A stretch of 4,404 bases of DNA, from the IMG/VR virus record IMGVR_UViG_2582580934_000001. One strand, given 5' to 3'. The notes below the pieces were generated by a model. It was given only the letters and a program-made list of their open reading frames with translations, did no database searches and was not told the origin of the DNA. Position numbers and translations under genes: made by a program. Below, piece after piece: positions 1 to 4,404 of this stretch. The stretch comes from a virus. Its lineage: Duplodnaviria; Heunggongvirae; Uroviricota; Caudoviricetes. How positions within the stretch are numbered: the first letter of the stretch is position 1; the number at the start of each line of letters is the position of its first letter.

Positions 1-480
1 AAATCCGAAACTGCAGCGGCATCATCGAAGAACGCGGCGAAAACCTCAGAAACGAATGCAGCTAACAGCGCACAGGCGGCAGCGACCTCACAGACTGCAT
101 CGGCAAACTCCGCGACAGCAGCCAAAAAATCAGAAACCAACGCGAAAAATAGCGAGACAGCCGCAAAGACGAGCGAAACCAACGCAAAGTCCAGCCAGAC
201 GGCAGCGAAGACCAGCGAAACGAATGCCAAAGCCAGTGAAACTGCGGCGAAAAGCAGTCAGGATGCAGCGGCTCAAAGCGAGAGTGCCGCAGCCAGTTCT
301 GCAAGCGCGGCGGCTGCTTCTGCCACTGCATCAGCTAACAGTCAAAAAGCAGCAAAAACCAGTGAAACCAACGCAAAGGTGAGCGAAACAGCGGCTGCGA
401 ACTCAGCGAAAGCATCGGCAGCAAGCCAGACGGCAGCTAAAGCAAGCGAAGATGCAGCCAGAGAGTACGCAAGCCAGGCT
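1..480 (+). repeat. Degenerate in-frame tandem repeats encoding SETNA(K)/SETAA(K) units (tail-fibre shaft repeat region)
   Basis: SETNA codon blocks at 46-60, 130-144, 172-186, 214-228 and 361-375; SETAA blocks at 4-18, 151-165, 235-249 and 382-396. The A/C/G-rich low-complexity DNA yields long spurious ORFs in the other frames (56..382 +, 62..331 -). Confidence 0.75.
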
Positions 481-1800
481 GCGGAGCCGTATAAATATGT
501 CTTACAGCCGCTGCCTGATGTGTGGATACCATTTAACGATTCGCTGGATATGATTACGGGCTTTTCGCCGTCATATAAAAAAATTGTTATTGGTGACGAT
601 GAAATAACGATGCCTGGCGACAAGATTGTTAAGTTTAAACGTGCATCGAAAGCAACCTATATTAACAAATCTGGTGTGCTGACAGAGGCTGCCATTGACG
701 AGCCACGATTTGAACGTGATGGCCTGCTTATTGAGGGGCAAAGAACAAACTACATGCTCAATTCGGAAAGCCCTGCCAGTTGGGGGCGATCGTCAAATAT
801 GGATGTGCCCGAAACAGGGACGGATAATTTTGGTTTTACCTATGGAAAGTTTGTCTGCAACGATTCTCTGATTGGGCAAACCTCAGCCATTAATATGGCA
901 TCAATTGCTGCAACAAAGTCAGTTGATGTCTCAGGCGATAATAAACACGTGACAACCTCATGTCGTTTTAAAACAGAACTGCAGGTAAGGTTGCGTATCC
1001 GGTTTGATAAATATGACGGTAGCGCAACAACTTTTCTTGGTGATGCGTATATTGATACACAAACGCTTGAAATTAATATGACAGGCGGTGCTGCCTCAAG
1101 GATTACAGCGAGAGTCAGAAAGGACGAAGCTACCGGATGGATTTTTGCAGAGGCAACAATTCAGGCAATTGATGGGGAGTTAAAAATAGGCTCTCAGATA
1201 CAGTATTCTCCTAAGCAGAGCGGGGCAACCGTATCTGGTGACTATATTTATCTGGCCACCCCACAAGTAGAAGATGGGCCTTGTGTATCATCTTTTATTA
1301 TATCAGGAGCGACGGCGGCGACCCGCGCAAGCGATATAGTTACAGTTCCAATTAAGAATAATCTTTATAATCTTCCTTTTACGGTTCTTTGTGAGGTACA
1401 TAAGAACTGGTATAAAACGCCAAATGCAGCGCCACGTGTTTTTGATACCGGCGGTCATCAAACCGGAGCGGCTATTATTCTTGGCTTCGGTCGTTCAACA
1501 GATTACGACGGATTTCCTTATTGCGATATTGGAGGAGCTAACAGACGGGTAAACGAAAACGCATCGCTTGAAAAAATGGTTATGGGGATGCGTGTAAAGT
1601 CAGAGCAGTCTACGTGCTCAGTAAGTAACGGGCATATATCCAGCGAAACAAAAACCACATGGTCCTGTATTCAGAACACCGCAATTATCCGTATTGGAGG
1701 CCAGACTACAGCCGGGTTACGTCATTTATTTGGTCATGTCAGGAATTTCAGAATATGGCACAAGGCATTGACTGATGCTCAGGTGGGGGAGTCAATCTAA
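1..1800 (+). CDS. Phage side tail fibre protein, 5'-partial (enters from upstream of window); Ala/Ser/Thr-rich repeat shaft followed by a lower-GC distal region with a LamG/concanavalin-like jelly-roll tip
   Basis: Frame 1 is open from nt 1 to the TAA at 1798-1800; the GTG at 379 in the ORF track is an internal codon of this longer frame. Nt 1-400 translate to KSETAAASSKNAAKTSETNA...KTSETNAKVSETAAAN with nine SET(N/A)A units, typical of Stf-type prophage fibre shafts. The last ~170 aa carry a LamG-like motif series (PFTVLCEVHKNW, RVFDTGG, AIILGFG, IRIGGQ, FGHVRNFRIWHKALTDAQV). Confidence 0.9.
   Translation, partial: KSETAAASSKNAAKTSETNAANSAQAAATSQTASANSATAAKKSETNAKNSETAAKTSETNAKSSQTAAKTSETNAKASETAAKSSQDAAAQSESAAASSASAAAASATASANSQKAAKTSETNAKVSETAAANSAKASAASQTAAKASEDAAREYASQAAEPYKYVLQPLPDVWIPFNDSLDMITGFSPSYKKIVIGDDEITMPGDKIVKFKRASKATYINKSGVLTEAAIDEPRFERDGLLIEGQRTNYMLNSESPASWGRSSNMDVPETGTDNFGFTYGKFVCNDSLIGQTSAINMASIAATKSVDVSGDNKHVTTSCRFKTELQVRLRIRFDKYDGSATTFLGDAYIDTQTLEINMTGGAASRITARVRKDEATGWIFAEATIQAIDGELKIGSQIQYSPKQSGATVSGDYIYLATPQVEDGPCVSSFIISGATAATRASDIVTVPIKNNLYNLPFTVLCEVHKNWYKTPNAAPRVFDTGGHQTGAAIILGFGRSTDYDGFPYCDIGGANRRVNENASLEKMVMGMRVKSEQSTCSVSNGHISSETKTTWSCIQNTAIIRIGGQTTAGLRHLFGHVRNFRIWHKALTDAQVGESI
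1786..1791 (+). promoter_or_regulatory. Shine-Dalgarno-like GGGGAG for the 1800 ORF, embedded in the end of the fibre gene
   Basis: GGGGAG at 1786-1791, 8 nt before the ATG at 1800; the ATG overlaps the fibre stop codon (TAATG), which suggests translational coupling. Confidence 0.5.
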
Positions 1801-2081
1801 TGAAAGATTTAACACTCAAATTTGAAGACAGGGCCGACTTTTCGGCCTTTATGGAGAGTATTGGCTATTATGATGACGAGTCGATGCAGGATGATATTCT
1901 TATCGACGTGATAGGTAACGTGTACAAAGAAACCGGAGAACTGACTGAAGATGGCGAACCGGTATGTGTTAAGGAAGACGGATATTTTGTAAACGTGCGC
2001 ATCATTAATGATTCGCAAATATCGTCATTATTCGATGAATACGTGGTTGCTGTTGAGCATCAACTTCGTGGCTGGATGTGA
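1800..2081 (+). CDS. Hypothetical small acidic protein (93 aa), unknown function, co-transcribed with the fibre genes
   Basis: ATG at 1800 with an upstream SD and 1-nt stop/start overlap with the fibre gene; stop TGA 2079-2081 lies 9 nt before the next gene. Protein is rich in D/E (MKDLTLKFEDRADFSAFMESIGYYDDESMQDD...). No family recognised from memory. Confidence 0.6.
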   Translation: MKDLTLKFEDRADFSAFMESIGYYDDESMQDDILIDVIGNVYKETGELTEDGEPVCVKEDGYFVNVRIINDSQISSLFDEYVVAVEHQLRGWM

Positions 2082-2084
2082 GGA
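2081..2084 (+). promoter_or_regulatory. Shine-Dalgarno AGGA for the 2091 ORF
   Basis: GAGGAAG at 2080-2086, with AGGA at 2081-2084 and a 6-nt spacer to the ATG at 2091. Confidence 0.55.
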
Positions 2085-2090
2085 AGAAAA

Positions 2091-3131
2091 ATGGCTACAT
2101 CGACAGTAATTCCTGATGACATCAAAACGCTAAAATCCGACGTTAGCAAATTAAAAAACGATCAAGGAAGCTACGCAACAAAATCTTATGTAGACAATAA
2201 AACAACATGGAATGGTTATTGCAATGTAATCTATGATCAAAAAACATTGCCAACAACTGGAACTATATTCAGCGGTAAGCTGCATTTGTCAAATAAGACT
2301 GGTGAAACGGAAAACGCTTATAGTGACATATATACCAGAAAAAATATTGATGGTACTAAAGATACAATGACGAGGATCGTCACACATAACGGGACAAAAG
2401 GTATCTTTTGGGACTTTAGTGATCTTTACGGAGGAACTTTAATTTTTCCAGGCAGTGATGGTTACCTTAAGATGGGGAACTGTCTCATGTCGTATGGTGT
2501 GCGGGGAAGTAACGCGCTTATTAAGTTTGATAATACAGACTCATTGCAGATCAAATATGCTAATCACGGGTCGACCATGACACTAAACACGCAAGGTACG
2601 GCGTATTCTGGTGTGTCGACGTTATTATGGGGAAATTCCAGCCGTCCTGTTGTTTATGAAGTCGGTGTTGATGGTGGCGCTTATATGTTCTATGCGCAGA
2701 AAAATACCGATAACACCTATATGTTAAGCGTTAATGGTGCATGTCATGCCACCGCATTTAACCAGCATTCCGACCGGGATCTGAAAGACAACATTCAGGT
2801 GATCGATAATGCAACCGACCGCATCCGTAAAATGAACGGCTATACATACACGCTTAAAGAAAACGGTATGCCCTATGCTGGTGTCATTGCACAGGAAGCT
2901 CTGGAAGCAATCCCAGAAGTTGTAGGTTCCGCAATGAAATATCAGGACGGTGCGAGCGGATCGGAAGGTGAAGAAGGTGAACGTTATTACACAGTAGATT
3001 ATTCTGGTGTTACTGGCTTGCTTGTTCAGGTAGCCAGAGAGTCAGACGACAGAATAACAGCACTGGAAGAAGAAAACGCAGAATTAAGACAAAGATTATC
3101 TGTAATTGAGGCGGCGCTTGCGTCTAAATAA
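2091..3131 (+). CDS. Tail fibre / tailspike-like protein (346 aa) with C-terminal intramolecular chaperone auto-processing domain (peptidase S74 type)
   Basis: ATG at 2091 with a good SD; stop TAA 3129-3131. Residues 227-346 read SDRDLKDNIQVID...RIRKMNGYTYTLKENGMPYAGVIAQEALEAIPEVV...YYTVDYSGVTGLLVQVARE...ALEEENAELRQRL, which matches the conserved pattern of the endosialidase / T5 pb1-type chaperone domain (SD-R-LK, G-IAQE-P-VV, DYS-L-V, terminal coiled coil). The N-terminal ~226 aa are AT-rich and Gly/Thr/Asn/Tyr-rich, as expected for a beta-rich receptor-binding part. Confidence 0.88.
   Translation: MATSTVIPDDIKTLKSDVSKLKNDQGSYATKSYVDNKTTWNGYCNVIYDQKTLPTTGTIFSGKLHLSNKTGETENAYSDIYTRKNIDGTKDTMTRIVTHNGTKGIFWDFSDLYGGTLIFPGSDGYLKMGNCLMSYGVRGSNALIKFDNTDSLQIKYANHGSTMTLNTQGTAYSGVSTLLWGNSSRPVVYEVGVDGGAYMFYAQKNTDNTYMLSVNGACHATAFNQHSDRDLKDNIQVIDNATDRIRKMNGYTYTLKENGMPYAGVIAQEALEAIPEVVGSAMKYQDGASGSEGEEGERYYTVDYSGVTGLLVQVARESDDRITALEEENAELRQRLSVIEAALASK
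2769..3128 (+). other. Domain: intramolecular chaperone / autoproteolytic C-terminal domain; predicted cleavage Ser codon at 2769-2771 (Ser227 of the 2091 ORF)
   Basis: HSDRDLKDN motif; the Ser in the SD-R-LK context is the established self-cleavage residue in characterised S74 domains. Assignment is by motif recall, not by search. Confidence 0.7.
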
Positions 3132-3137
3132 TATTAA

Positions 3138-3160
3138 GGGGCCGAGCGCCCCGTTTTATT
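3138..3160 (+). terminator. Rho-independent terminator ending the fibre gene cluster
   Basis: GGGGC (3138-3142), loop CGAGC, GCCCC (3148-3152), followed by GTTTTATT (3153-3160), 7 nt after the stop of the 2091 ORF. Confidence 0.7.
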
Positions 3161-3173
3161 GGGTAGGATGAAA

Positions 3174-3467
3174 ATGGATATAACACCTTTCCTTCATGCG
3201 CTTTGTGCTGTGGCTGCGCAGCTACTGATTGGTCTTTTTACCGGGAACTGGGCTTACGGGGCGATAGCCGGTTGTACGTTCTTCATTGCGCGTGAACACA
3301 CCCAGGCAGAATATCGCTGGATCGAAATGTTCGGGCATGGCAAGCGAATGAATATGCCGTGGTGGGGCGGTTTTGATACACGTGCATGGGATGTGGCAAG
3401 CCTGATGGATTTTGCTGTGCCGGTGGTGGCGTGTCTGCTGGTCTGGCTGTTGGTTAATCGTGGGTGA
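3174..3467 (+). CDS. Hypothetical small membrane protein (~97 aa from ATG 3174; in-frame alternative starts at ATG 3168 and TTG 3159), two predicted hydrophobic helices
   Basis: AGGA at 3165-3168 lies 5 nt before the ATG at 3174; stop TGA 3465-3467. Hydrophobic stretches FLHALCAVAAQLLIGLFTGNWAYGAIAGCTFFIA and ASLMDFAVPVVACLLVWLLV. GC is about 55%, unlike the AT-rich genes upstream. No family recognised. Confidence 0.5.
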   Translation: MDITPFLHALCAVAAQLLIGLFTGNWAYGAIAGCTFFIAREHTQAEYRWIEMFGHGKRMNMPWWGGFDTRAWDVASLMDFAVPVVACLLVWLLVNRG

Positions 3468-3477
3468 AAAAAGGTGA

Positions 3478-3606
3478 GCTGTATATGCAACGGAGGAAGA
3501 AACCCCGTTGCTGGAAGCCTGGAAAAAGTATCGGATGCTGCTGAACCGTGTTGATACATCAACTGCACCTGATATTGAGTGGCCTACGAACCCTGTCAGG
3601 GAGTAA
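3478..3606 (+). pseudogene. tfa: Fossil 3' end of a tail fibre assembly (Tfa) gene; only ~42 C-terminal codons remain and there is no start codon
   Basis: Frame 1 between TGA 3475-3477 and TAA 3604-3606 translates [42 protein letters not shown]. As I recall it, the phage lambda Tfa C-terminus is ...[36 protein letters not shown], a near match. Upstream frames are closed, and the unrelated 3174..3467 ORF sits in another frame. Confidence 0.75.
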
Positions 3607-3669
3607 TCATTGGGATTATGCCGCAGAACGTCTTAAGTAATCATTGGGATTATGCCGCAGAAACGTTGT
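3602..3669. repeat. Tandem direct duplication, 2 x 34 bp (first 27 nt identical), starting inside the tfa stop codon
   Basis: 3602-3635 is AGTAATCATTGGGATTATGCCGCAGAACGTCTTA and 3636-3669 is AGTAATCATTGGGATTATGCCGCAGAAACGTTGT. Confidence 0.85.
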
Positions 3670-3852: not shown

Positions 3853-4404
3853 CTAATTGGGTGATGACAAATCCTGTGTATGGGTGTTTCCCTTTGTGCG
3901 TGCGTTGATGCTGGTAACGGTGAACGTCATGATGAACACAACCGCGAATAAGACGACAATCGTCGGAGCTGGTGCACTGTCGATAAAAAAGGACAACCAG
4001 ACACCAGTCATTGACACTATTACCGATATGCCAATCGCCAGTAGGAGCGCAATATGAAAGCGTTGTGTCAGGAGTACCGCAATGGCGCCAGGCGCAATGA
4101 GCAGAGAAATGGAGAGAATGATACCTACCGCTTTCAGCGTCGCCACAATGGTCAGAGAGACCATGCACAGCAGCCCATAATGCAGACATCTCGTATGCAA
4201 ACCGCTTACCTGCGCCTGTTGATAATCAAAGCTGAACAGCAAAAAATCCCGCCATTTTACGCTAATAACAAGTGTAACCAGCCCGGCAATAATCACCGTC
4301 TGGATTATATCGCCGATGGTTACCCCGAGCATGTCGCCGAAAAGAATATGGTCAAGATGTACGTCTGGTTTGACTGCAATATACAAGATCAGACCTGCGG
4401 CAAA
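3853..4404 (-). CDS. sitD: ABC-3 family divalent-metal (Mn/Fe) ABC transporter permease, SitD-like; 3' portion only, N-terminus lies beyond the window edge
   Basis: Minus-strand frame is open from nt 4404 down to stop TAG at 3855-3853. Translation ...LFGDMLGVTIGDIIQTVIIAGLVTLVISVKWRDFLLFSFDYQQAQVSGL...AVGIILSISLLIAPGAIAVLLTQRFH...FIDSAPAPTIVVLFAVVFIM aligns with the ZnuB/MntB/SitCD permease pattern (LFGDLLAV...LSxTISPDLAxxxG...xVGxLLxxSLLIxPAAxA...SGPxIVL). The sitD name is contextual (last permease of an operon next to prophage genes) and the symbol is less certain than the family. Confidence 0.8.
   Translation of the reverse strand, partial: FAAGLILYIAVKPDVHLDHILFGDMLGVTIGDIIQTVIIAGLVTLVISVKWRDFLLFSFDYQQAQVSGLHTRCLHYGLLCMVSLTIVATLKAVGIILSISLLIAPGAIAVLLTQRFHIALLLAIGISVIVSMTGVWLSFFIDSAPAPTIVVLFAVVFIMTFTVTSINARTKGNTHTQDLSSPN

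What the first reader, a model, noticed from the sequence alone, without database searches (positions are those of the whole stretch)
1800..2081. Translationally coupled 93-aa acidic protein between the two fibre genes
The fibre stop and this start share TAATG, so the protein should be made in step with the fibre. It is strongly acidic and has no hydrophobic segment. Candidate roles are a fibre-specific chaperone or adaptor replacing the lost Tfa, or an acidic DNA-mimic anti-defence protein riding in the late operon. Sequence alone cannot separate these.
Basis: inference. Interest (0 to 1): 0.5.

Follow-up and report, generated by a model that had tools for sequence, protein, structure and literature searches.

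The report
Small partner protein of phage fibre
A real, conserved 93-residue acidic protein is always encoded right behind one particular type of phage tail-fibre tip in at least six coliphage lineages, so it is most likely an unstudied helper or connector of that fibre rather than an anti-defence protein.

Summary
The ORF at 1800-2081 is real: 93 aa, pI 4.05, net charge -15, no hydrophobic segment, ATG sharing one base with the fibre stop (TAATG), with its own Shine-Dalgarno. It belongs to PHROG 1361 (function unknown) and has no Pfam, NCBIfam, PDB or known-fold relative. In about 253 of 258 loci examined, from lambdoid, T1-like, Dhillonvirus, Queuovirinae (Nonagvirus and Seuratvirus), T5-like and rV5-like phages, the gene directly follows a fibre gene. 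That fibre has a C-terminal region homologous to the window's (GTA-head-spike-fibre-like plus LamG/galectin-like). The gene after the small ORF varies. When it encodes a second fibre, that fibre starts with a conserved 15-residue peptide (M-A/V-T-x-T-x-I-P-x-D-I-x-x-L-K) and carries its own chaperone: an S74 domain or, in one locus, a canonical Tfa. Phage 21 keeps the small gene under equal purifying selection with no second fibre and no Tfa. The protein therefore belongs to the upstream (proximal) fibre. It is most likely that fibre's trans-acting assembly factor, and possibly part of the socket for the distal fibre. "Replacing the lost Tfa" is not supported, and a DNA-mimic role is unlikely. 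No experiment has addressed it.

The parts
1..1800 (+). 3' part (599 codons) of the proximal side tail fibre gene. It has an Ala/Ser/Glu-rich shaft and then a globular C-terminal region of about 430 aa, which is the conserved partner of the small ORF.
   Evidence: phrog_1419 at E=1.7e-257. The C-terminal region is 43-93% identical to the fibres that precede the small ORF in 8 other phages. PGAP calls it 'prophage tail fiber N-terminal domain-containing protein', 728 aa in the source genome.
727..1329 (+). GTA head-spike-fibre-like domain inside the fibre (aa 243-443 of the 599 read).
   Evidence: NCBIfam NF048003 GTA_spike_fiber, E=2e-13. It also matches PDB 6tb9, the RcGTA head spike fibre Rcc01080, at E=1e-7.
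1627..1785 (+). C-terminal end of a LamG/ConA-like (galectin-like) domain, ending ...RHLFGHVRNFRIWHKALTDAQVGESI.
   Evidence: Weak Pfam Laminin_G_3 match, E=0.007, below the gathering score. The end motif is conserved in all partner fibres. Humolli et al. 2025 describe a protruding C-terminal galectin-like domain in the homologue IrisVonRoten Gp22.
1785..1791 (+). Shine-Dalgarno GGGGGAG for the small ORF, inside the end of the fibre gene.
   Evidence: Read directly from the sequence. SD-like purine runs occupy the same place in the other phages: AAGAGG, AAGGAG, GGGGGA.
1798..1802 (+). TAATG stop/start overlap.
   Evidence: Among unique junction sequences, 12 overlap by 1 nt with an ATG start and 11 overlap by 4 nt (ATGA); two further 1-nt junctions had a mis-located start.
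1800..2081 (+). The small acidic protein gene (93 aa), a member of PHROG 1361.
   Evidence: AF2 model: pLDDT 80.9, order beta-alpha-alpha-beta-beta-alpha, with a low-confidence but conserved C-terminal tail.
2091..3131 (+). Distal fibre / second receptor-binding protein (346 aa).
   Evidence: phrog_4563 at E=7e-209. Peptidase_S74 at aa 227-278, E=6.3e-14.
2091..2135 (+). Conserved N-terminal 'plug' peptide MATSTVIPDDIKTLK of the distal fibre.
   Evidence: The same motif heads otherwise unrelated downstream proteins in lambdoid, Drexlerviridae, Dhillonvirus, Nonagvirus, Seuratvirus and T5-like phages. All 199 exact motif occurrences found lie directly after the small ORF.
2769..2924 (+). Intramolecular chaperone (Peptidase_S74) core of the distal fibre.
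   Evidence: Pfam PF13884, 52.4 bits against a cut-off of 22.
3138..3160 (+). Terminator-like hairpin GGGGCCGAGCGCCCC followed by a T-run, closing the fibre/small ORF/distal fibre unit.
3174..3467 (+). 97-aa two-TM membrane protein (phrog_1443). It directly follows the small ORF in phage-21-type loci.
   Evidence: phrog_1443 at E=2.8e-58. The phage 21 annotation gives 2 TMDs. It follows the small ORF in 48 loci.
3487..3606 (+). Remnant of a tail fibre assembly gene (tfa); only the last 39 or so codons remain.
   Evidence: Caudo_TAP PF02413 positions 95-130 of 131, E=2.4e-16. PGAP marks it as a pseudogene 'missing N-terminus'.

Best explanation
The 93-aa protein is a dedicated accessory protein of the upstream (proximal) side tail fibre. 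It is made in step with the fibre by coupled translation. I propose that it binds the fibre's globular C-terminal region (GTA-head-spike-fibre-like plus LamG/galectin-like) and acts as that region's trans-acting folding and assembly factor. This is the job that an S74 domain or a Tfa does for the distal fibre.

Where a second receptor-binding protein is encoded downstream, that protein docks on the same fibre end through a conserved 15-residue N-terminal peptide. The small protein may stay bound and form part of that junction.

Shown here: the gene is real and under purifying selection; it is linked to one fibre C-terminal domain type across phage lineages; it persists whether or not a distal fibre is present; and it is unrelated to known chaperones. 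Inferred: physical binding, chaperone activity, and whether it ends up in the virion.
For: 1. Linkage. In 8 annotated phages from 6 lineages the small gene overlaps the stop of a fibre gene whose last ~430 aa are 43-93% identical to the window's. In 258 loci, about 253 have that fibre ending within 12 nt of the small ORF's start. Divergent fibres come with divergent small proteins: HMD-P3, AKFV33 and BRET.

2. The downstream gene is not conserved: a distal fibre in 200 loci, a membrane protein in 48, something else in 5.

3. Phage 21 has the fibre, the small gene and the membrane protein, but no distal fibre, no plug motif and no Tfa anywhere in its genome. Its allele is as constrained as the window type: pN/pS 0.33 against 0.35.

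4. Distal fibres bring their own chaperone, S74 in 7 of 9 distal proteins scanned or a Caudo_TAP Tfa in L200. The proximal fibre has neither. The small protein is therefore the only candidate helper for it.

5. Stop/start overlap plus an SD, with no terminator before 3138, is the usual fibre/chaperone layout.

6. The most distant members keep a conserved C-terminal tail, P-x-R-x-W-A, which the AF2 model leaves at low confidence (pLDDT about 50). That would fit a partner-binding peptide.

7. The homologous fibre of AKFV33 is a virion protein with its C-terminal peptides intact, so the domain in question is retained in the particle.
Against: There is no direct evidence of binding or chaperone activity, and no co-folding could be run here. 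Adjacency alone would also produce co-inheritance, because fibre modules move as blocks. The fold is a generic alpha+beta sandwich with no resemblance to Tfa, gp38, gp57A or S74 domains. No electrostatic complement to the acidic protein was found in the fibre C-terminus or in the plug peptide. The strict rule that every plug-bearing gene follows the small ORF (199 of 199) fits a structural adaptor role equally well. Humolli et al. 2025 presented predicted IrisVonRoten fibre complexes in terms of Gp22 and Gp24 and did not discuss the small protein.
Confidence: 0.5

Rival explanations
1. It is a structural connector. The small protein is a stoichiometric virion component that sits on the end of the proximal fibre and forms the socket for the conserved N-terminal plug of the distal receptor-binding protein. 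This would resemble T4 gp35/gp36 between the fibre halves. In phage-21-type phages it would simply cap the fibre.
For: All 199 genes starting with the plug motif are directly preceded by the small ORF. The plug is conserved while the rest of the distal protein falls into at least 5 unrelated families. When the small protein and the fibre end diverge strongly (HMD-P3), the distal N-terminus changes too. The same T-shaped receptor-binding domain sits on a different N-terminus, with no small ORF, in Gordonclarkvirinae. The family keeps a conserved, apparently flexible C-terminal tail.
Against: The gene is kept under the same constraint where there is no distal fibre. In rV5-like phages no plug-bearing gene follows it. 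The plug could dock on the fibre itself. No virion proteomics covers a 10-kDa protein: the AKFV33 study analysed only four gel bands.
Confidence: 0.25
2. It is a transient cap. The protein masks the glycan-binding LamG/galectin-like domain of new fibres inside the producing cell or just after lysis, and is shed before infection. This is the role proposed for the Alteromonas phage fibre chaperone 'caps'.
For: It is linked to a lectin-like C-terminal domain. It is small, soluble and acidic. There is a precedent for chaperone caps shared between distant phage families.
Against: This is purely analogical. The Alteromonas chaperones resemble intramolecular chaperone domains, whereas this fold does not. 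Nothing here tests masking.
Confidence: 0.1
3. It is an acidic DNA-mimic or other anti-defence protein that merely rides in the late operon.
For: The window allele has net charge -15, and most members lie between -8 and -18. The protein is small and soluble.
Confidence: 0.03
4. It is a functional replacement for the lost Tfa, serving the 346-aa fibre or both fibres.
For: A truncated tfa lies downstream at 3487-3606. The small gene sits between the two fibre genes.
Against: It co-exists with an intact Caudo_TAP Tfa in L200. The 346-aa protein has its own S74 chaperone domain. The small gene is present where no second fibre exists. There is no sequence relation to Tfa.
Confidence: 0.03

Closest known systems
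Trans-acting tail fibre assembly proteins (lambda Tfa / Mu gpU / P2 gpG; Pfam Caudo_TAP PF02413)
   Same: Both are small proteins encoded immediately after the fibre gene they would serve. Both are translationally coupled to it, move with the fibre's C-terminal domain between unrelated phages, and may remain on the fibre tip.
   Different: There is no sequence relation (no Pfam hit; hhalign probability 0.4%). The protein is about half the size of a Tfa. It co-exists with a real Tfa in L200. The partner is a globular LamG/GTA-spike-like domain, not a Stf/gpH-type fibre tip.
Fibre plus cognate chaperone 'cap' modules of Alteromonas phages V22/A5 (Gonzalez-Serrano et al. 2023, PMC10579305)
   Same: A fibre and a small downstream partner are shared as one module between morphologically different phage families, and chaperone dependence may vary.
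   Different: Those chaperones resemble intramolecular chaperone domains. This protein is a generic alpha+beta sandwich with no such match. Its function is untested.
T4 long tail fibre connectors gp35/gp36, between proximal gp34 and distal gp37
   Same: The gene order is proximal fibre, small connector, distal fibre. Under the connector reading the small protein would sit at the junction.
   Different: No homology was found. T4 gp35 is about 370 aa (my recollection). Here the small gene persists without any distal fibre.
Branched dual-RBP systems with a conserved N-terminal docking peptide (Klebsiella KP32-type and G7C gp63.1/gp66 with a T4gp10-like branching domain; T5-like DT57C LtfA/LtfB)
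   Same: A second receptor-binding protein with a short conserved N-terminus and a variable body attaches to a first fibre. The modules are exchanged horizontally.
   Different: Those systems are not described as needing a separate small protein. No T4gp10-like domain was detected in the fibre by Pfam or NCBIfam. DT57C LtfC is a different protein: a 140-aa collar encoded upstream of ltfA.
IrisVonRoten (Bas32) Gp22/Gp24 proximal fibre plus T-shaped distal fibre (Humolli et al. 2025, PMC11990801)
   Same: This is a direct homologue of the window's arrangement. Over the aligned region Gp22 is 51% identical to the window fibre, Gp23 is the small protein (39% identical), and Gp24 begins with the same plug motif.
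   Different: The paper describes Gp22 and Gp24 only. The small Gp23 is annotated 'tail fiber protein' and is not discussed.

Membership tests
PHROG 1361 (phage protein family of unknown function) | Full-length match to the family profile | tested here: met
   E=2.5e-46, residues 1-93 on profile positions 1-92 of 92.
PHROG 1361 (phage protein family of unknown function) | Conserved core motifs shared with distant members (M-K/R-D-x-x-L-K-F; D-x-I-G; G-Y-F/H-V-N-x-R; P-x-R-x-W-A) | tested here: met
   Alignments A1-A3. Invariant or nearly invariant columns include M1, L6, F8, G39, N65, R67 and W92. The window has a variant tail, QLRGWM.
Tail fibre assembly protein, Caudo_TAP (PF02413) | Sequence match to the Pfam model or to a member | tested here: not met
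   No Pfam hit at E<=1. hhalign of the family profile against the L200 Tfa gives probability 0.4%.
Tail fibre assembly protein, Caudo_TAP (PF02413) | Encoded directly downstream of the fibre it serves | tested here: met
   Stop/start overlap with the fibre gene at the junctions examined.
Tail fibre assembly protein, Caudo_TAP (PF02413) | Required for fibre folding or trimerisation | not testable with these tools
   This needs co-expression or a deletion mutant.
Intramolecular chaperone of fibres and endosialidases (Peptidase_S74, PF13884) | S74 domain with a Ser-Lys dyad | tested here: not met
   No hit in the small protein. The domain is present in the downstream 346-aa protein.
DNA-mimic anti-restriction proteins (Ocr, ArdA and similar) | Sequence or fold similarity to a known mimic | tested here: not met
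DNA-mimic anti-restriction proteins (Ocr, ArdA and similar) | Strong, conserved negative charge | tested here: inconclusive
   Net charge is -8 to -18 in nine members but only -4/-5 in AKFV33 and BRET. The surface pattern could not be examined because no coordinates are returned.
DNA-mimic anti-restriction proteins (Ocr, ArdA and similar) | Early expression and a location independent of structural genes | tested here: not met
   The gene is coupled to a late fibre gene in about 253 of 258 loci.
T5-family LtfC collar protein (DT57C gp109) | A 140-aa beta-rich protein encoded upstream of ltfA that forms the dodecameric collar | tested here: not met
   In IrisVonRoten and AKFV33 the collar gene is a separate ORF upstream of the fibre.
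Three-gene branched-fibre module (proximal fibre with LamG-like end / small protein / distal RBP with the MxTxTxIPxDIxxLK plug); defined here, not a named family | All three parts present in this order | tested here: met
   Window 1-1800, 1800-2081 and 2091-3131. The same order is seen in PhiR63_1, JenP2, IrisVonRoten, KarlJaspers, KarlBarth, VogelGryff, AKFV33 and BRET.

The most novel reading that the evidence does not exclude
The small protein, together with the LamG-like end of the proximal fibre, forms a universal socket. The 15-residue N-terminal peptide (M-A/V-T-x-T-x-I-P-x-D-I-x-x-L-K) is the matching plug. This would be a three-part plug-and-play system, shared by lambdoid, T1-like, Dhillonvirus, Queuovirinae and T5-like coliphages, that lets any receptor-binding protein be hung on a side fibre. 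The small protein would be a new kind of virion connector unrelated to the T4 gp10-like or gp35/36 solutions.
Probability: 0.25. Interest if true: 0.65.

Novelty: new variant of a known kind. Interest (0 to 1): 0.42.

Why it matters
Side and lateral tail fibres set the host range of coliphages and are the main target of phage and delivery-particle engineering. This module occurs in at least six lineages, including model and collection phages (phage 21, BASEL Bas06/17/25/32/48, JenP2, AKFV33), and in many E. coli prophages. Its third gene is annotated 'hypothetical' or mislabelled, and the one paper found that discusses this fibre architecture leaves it out.

If the small protein is needed for folding of the proximal fibre or for docking of the distal one, fibre swaps that omit it will fail. 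The conserved plug peptide would also give a simple rule for grafting new receptor-binding proteins. Finally, the analysis clarifies that the truncated tfa in this prophage is a relic of a distal-fibre exchange, not a loss that had to be compensated.

Tried and rejected
1. Sequence families. Pfam, NCBIfam and PADLOC gave nothing for the small protein. PDB sequence searches with the single protein and with the profile gave only chance-level hits.

3. Co-folding. Chimeric inputs would not be accepted, and the tool returns no contacts or PAE. The second AF2 job was therefore left unused.

4. 'LtfC' of DT57C looked like a candidate name for the protein. It is a different, upstream 140-aa collar protein.

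5. Virion proteomics. The AKFV33 study analysed four gel bands only and says nothing about orf136. Literature searches by identifier returned nothing.

6. Electrostatic complementarity between the acidic protein and the fibre end or plug peptide was not seen.

7. Programmed -1 frameshift fusing the fibre to the small protein. I read the junctions printed by eye and found no conserved slippery site; the junctions keep an SD instead.

8. Stop-codon read-through fusing the small protein to the next gene. By my count from the annotated coordinates, the two genes are in frame in only 7 of 12 lineages, so this is not a conserved feature.

9. The third homologue search with distant members mostly returned close relatives.
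Full report
OBSERVATION. The window is part of a phage-21-like prophage of Escherichia coli. It is 99.9% identical over 100% of its length to strain CB209, where PGAP annotates this gene order: gpJ, lom, tail fibre (728 aa), hypothetical (93 aa, WP_000654166.1), tail fibre domain protein (346 aa), hypothetical (97 aa), a tfa pseudogene and sitDCBA. The ORF at 1800-2081 starts with an ATG whose A is the last base of the fibre's TAA (1798-1800). GGGGGAG lies at 1785-1791. The product has 93 aa, 22 acidic against 7 basic residues, pI 4.05 and charge -15. It has no hydrophobic stretch: the highest 19-residue Kyte-Doolittle mean is 0.52. No promoter-like or terminator-like site lies between the three genes, and a GC hairpin with a T-run follows the 346-aa gene at 3138-3160.

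IS IT A GENE? Yes. It is a full-length member of phrog_1361, function unknown, at E=2.5e-46. tblastn finds it in 186 phage records. An exhaustive HMMER scan of 1.84 billion representatives finds only 51 clusters, many of them fragments, so the family is small and narrow. Among species-representative genomes it was found only in Escherichia, plus one probably mis-binned MAG. Across 66 distinct alleles of the window type, pN/pS is 0.35.

WHAT IT TRAVELS WITH. I inspected annotated loci in eight phages:
- Lambdoid: phage 21, PhiR63_1 and PhiR40_1.
- Drexlerviridae: KarlJaspers.
- Dhillonvirus: KarlBarth.
- Nonagvirus: JenP2.
- Tequintavirus: IrisVonRoten.
- Vequintavirus: CarlMeissner.

In every case the small gene overlaps the stop codon of a lateral or side tail fibre gene. 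The last ~430 residues of that fibre are 43-93% identical to window residues ~170-599, while the N-terminal parts are lineage-specific.

In a wider set of 258 loci from IMG/VR and GenBank, about 253 have such a fibre ending within 12 nt of the small ORF's start. A tblastn search with the fibre C-terminal region finds 219 phage records, 201 of them near full length. That is close to the number holding the small protein. The excess is explained at least partly by members too divergent for the first query, such as AKFV33 and BRET. These do carry an 88-aa family member, at E=9e-24 and 7e-26 against the distant-member profile.

The fibre region contains a domain related to the RcGTA head spike fibre (NCBIfam GTA_spike_fiber, E=2e-13; PDB 6tb9, E=1e-7). 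It ends in a LamG/ConA-like segment (weak Pfam match). For the 51%-identical IrisVonRoten Gp22, Humolli et al. 2025 describe a galectin-like domain protruding from the C-terminus of a 'proximal fibre'.

WHAT FOLLOWS IT. The downstream gene is not conserved. In the 258 loci it is a fibre-like protein in 200, the 97-aa membrane protein (phrog_1443) in 48, something else in 5, and lost at a contig end in 5. These proportions depend on how the loci were collected.

The fibre-like proteins fall into at least five unrelated families of 98 to 574 aa, yet all begin with the same peptide:
- Window: MATSTVIPDDIKTLK
- KarlJaspers: MATVTNIPADITALK
- IrisVonRoten: MVTKTVIPTDITKLK
- KarlBarth: MVTKTNIPADITALK
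- JenP2: MVTKTIIPTDITTLK
- AKFV33: MTTYTNIPQDITKLK
- VogelGryff: a one-residue-longer variant.

A DNA-pattern scan of IMG/VR for this peptide was combined with the loci already held. It gave 199 occurrences, all directly preceded by the small ORF.

The same T-shaped receptor-binding body occurs in Gordonclarkvirinae on a different N-terminus. There it has an unrelated upstream fibre and no small ORF. In HMD-P3 the fibre end, the small protein (33% identity) and the distal N-terminus are all divergent together. The picture is a three-part module: a proximal fibre with a lectin-like end, the small protein, and an exchangeable distal receptor-binding protein with a conserved N-terminal plug.

WHICH PARTNER DOES THE SMALL PROTEIN SERVE? 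Three observations point to the upstream fibre.

1. Phage 21 and PhiR40_1 have the fibre, the small gene and then the membrane protein directly. The complete phage 21 genome has no plug motif and no Tfa. Yet the phage-21-type allele is as constrained as the window type: pN/pS 0.33 against 0.35. rV5-like phages also keep a 110-aa version with no plug-bearing gene after it.

2. Distal proteins bring their own folding aid. Counting the window's 346-aa protein, 7 of 9 scanned have a Peptidase_S74 intramolecular chaperone domain. In locus L200 the distal protein is of the gp34/gp37/gp53 type and is followed by an intact Caudo_TAP Tfa. The small protein and Tfa therefore co-exist and are not alternatives.

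3. The proximal fibre has neither an S74 domain nor a Tfa.

By elimination and by position, the small protein is the proximal fibre's own accessory factor. Whether it leaves after assembly (chaperone) or stays (cap or connector) cannot be decided here.

The Tfa fragment at 3487-3606 (Caudo_TAP positions 95-130, E=2.4e-16) is best read as a relic of an earlier Stf-type distal fibre plus tfa. That pair would have been replaced by the S74-bearing 346-aa protein and the membrane protein. This step is inference.

STRUCTURE. AlphaFold2 with a 24-sequence alignment gives pLDDT 80.9 and pTM 0.67. The order of elements is strand 2-8, helix 11-20, helix 27-32, a long hairpin at 33-48 and 54-68, and helix 75-81. 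The last ten residues are at pLDDT about 50. That tail carries the motif P-x-R-x-W-A, which even the most distant members keep. This would suit a peptide that becomes ordered on a partner (inference).

RIVALS. The connector model explains the plug rule and the three-way divergence. It has to treat the phage-21 and rV5-type cases as caps. The transient-cap idea is analogical. The DNA-mimic idea has several problems:
- The gene directly follows this fibre type in about 253 of 258 loci; the exceptions were near contig ends or not followed up.
- It is coupled to a late structural gene.
- Its charge falls to -4/-5 in AKFV33 and BRET.
- It has no fold or family support.

The literal 'Tfa replacement' idea is contradicted by L200 and by the S74 domain of the 346-aa protein.

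LITERATURE. I found no paper that addresses this protein. Identifier searches returned nothing. The first BASEL paper notes only that lateral fibre loci are variable. The second describes Gp22 and Gp24 of IrisVonRoten but not Gp23. DT57C 'LtfC' is a different protein. The AKFV33 proteomics confirms the homologous fibre, ORF137, in virions, including peptides from residues 767-781. It analysed only four gel bands, so a 10-kDa protein would have been missed.

VERDICT. The protein is a member of a narrow, uncharacterised family that is an integral part of a horizontally mobile fibre module. The best-supported mechanism is a dedicated accessory factor of the proximal fibre's lectin-like C-terminal region (confidence about 0.5). 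Its acting as, or also as, the junction piece for the distal fibre is the main alternative (about 0.25). This is a new variant of a known kind, the fibre accessory protein, and not a new kind of system. Interest is moderate, mainly for fibre engineering and for completing the parts list of branched coliphage fibres.

Noticed in passing
window 3487-3606 (+): C-terminal remnant of a tail fibre assembly gene (Caudo_TAP positions 95-130, E=2.4e-16; PGAP pseudogene). It is probably a scar of an earlier distal-fibre/tfa pair replaced by the S74-type fibre.
   Followed up: partly
window 3602-3628 and 3636-3662: Exact 27-nt direct repeat with 34-nt spacing (AGTAATCATTGGGATTATGCCGCAGAA), starting at the stop codon of the tfa remnant. 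The best-matching E. coli genome spans 34 nt fewer and aligns in two pieces, so this may be a tandem duplication private to the window's source. I did not locate the gap.
   Followed up: partly
window 3853-4404 (-), and phage 21 locus L259 21967-25416: sitD, and in the source genome sitDCBA, lies directly after the fibre module. Phage 21 carries the same sitABCD operon at the same place, so the iron/manganese transporter is phage cargo here.
   Followed up: partly
window 3174-3467 (+); P0232, P0233, P0235: 97-aa two-TM protein of unknown function (phrog_1443) placed after a terminator. In phage-21-type loci it follows the small ORF in frame. Three metagenomic variants have lost the stop codon (to W, C or R), giving 194-aa small-protein/membrane-protein fusions. 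These could be real or sequencing errors.
   Followed up: no
window 1800-2091: The small ORF and the 346-aa gene are in the same frame, separated by TGA plus three codons. By my count from the annotated coordinates, the same holds in 7 of 12 lineages, so read-through fusion is possible here but is not a conserved feature.
   Followed up: partly
L001 5270-5947 (KarlJaspers), L261 3980-5146 (VogelGryff): Genes annotated 'putative lateral tail fiber chaperone' start with the plug motif and contain a Peptidase_S74 domain. They look like short distal fibres with an intramolecular chaperone, not free chaperones.
   Followed up: partly
P0209, P0231: Some small-protein alleles are mosaics: the N-terminal half resembles one subtype and the C-terminal half another. 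Recombination breakpoints therefore fall inside the 280-nt gene.
   Followed up: no
GenBank records MG0656xx 'Campylobacter phage', OR84xxxx 'Listeria phage': Records labelled as Campylobacter or Listeria phages carry near-identical copies of E. coli rV5-like or T5-like fibre modules. They are probably mislabelled or contaminated entries.
   Followed up: no
AKFV33 ORF137 (L268 2445-4799): The homologous fibre runs at 95.8 kDa on SDS-PAGE against a calculated 83.1 kDa. The difference of 12.7 kDa is close to the 10.2-kDa small protein. Anomalous migration of an acidic, Ala/Ser-rich protein is the simpler reading.
   Followed up: partly
window 1-500: The fibre shaft is a run of imperfect Ala/Ser/Glu/Thr/Asn-rich repeats (..AKTSETNAK..), which also gives long spurious ORFs in other frames and on the minus strand.
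   Followed up: no
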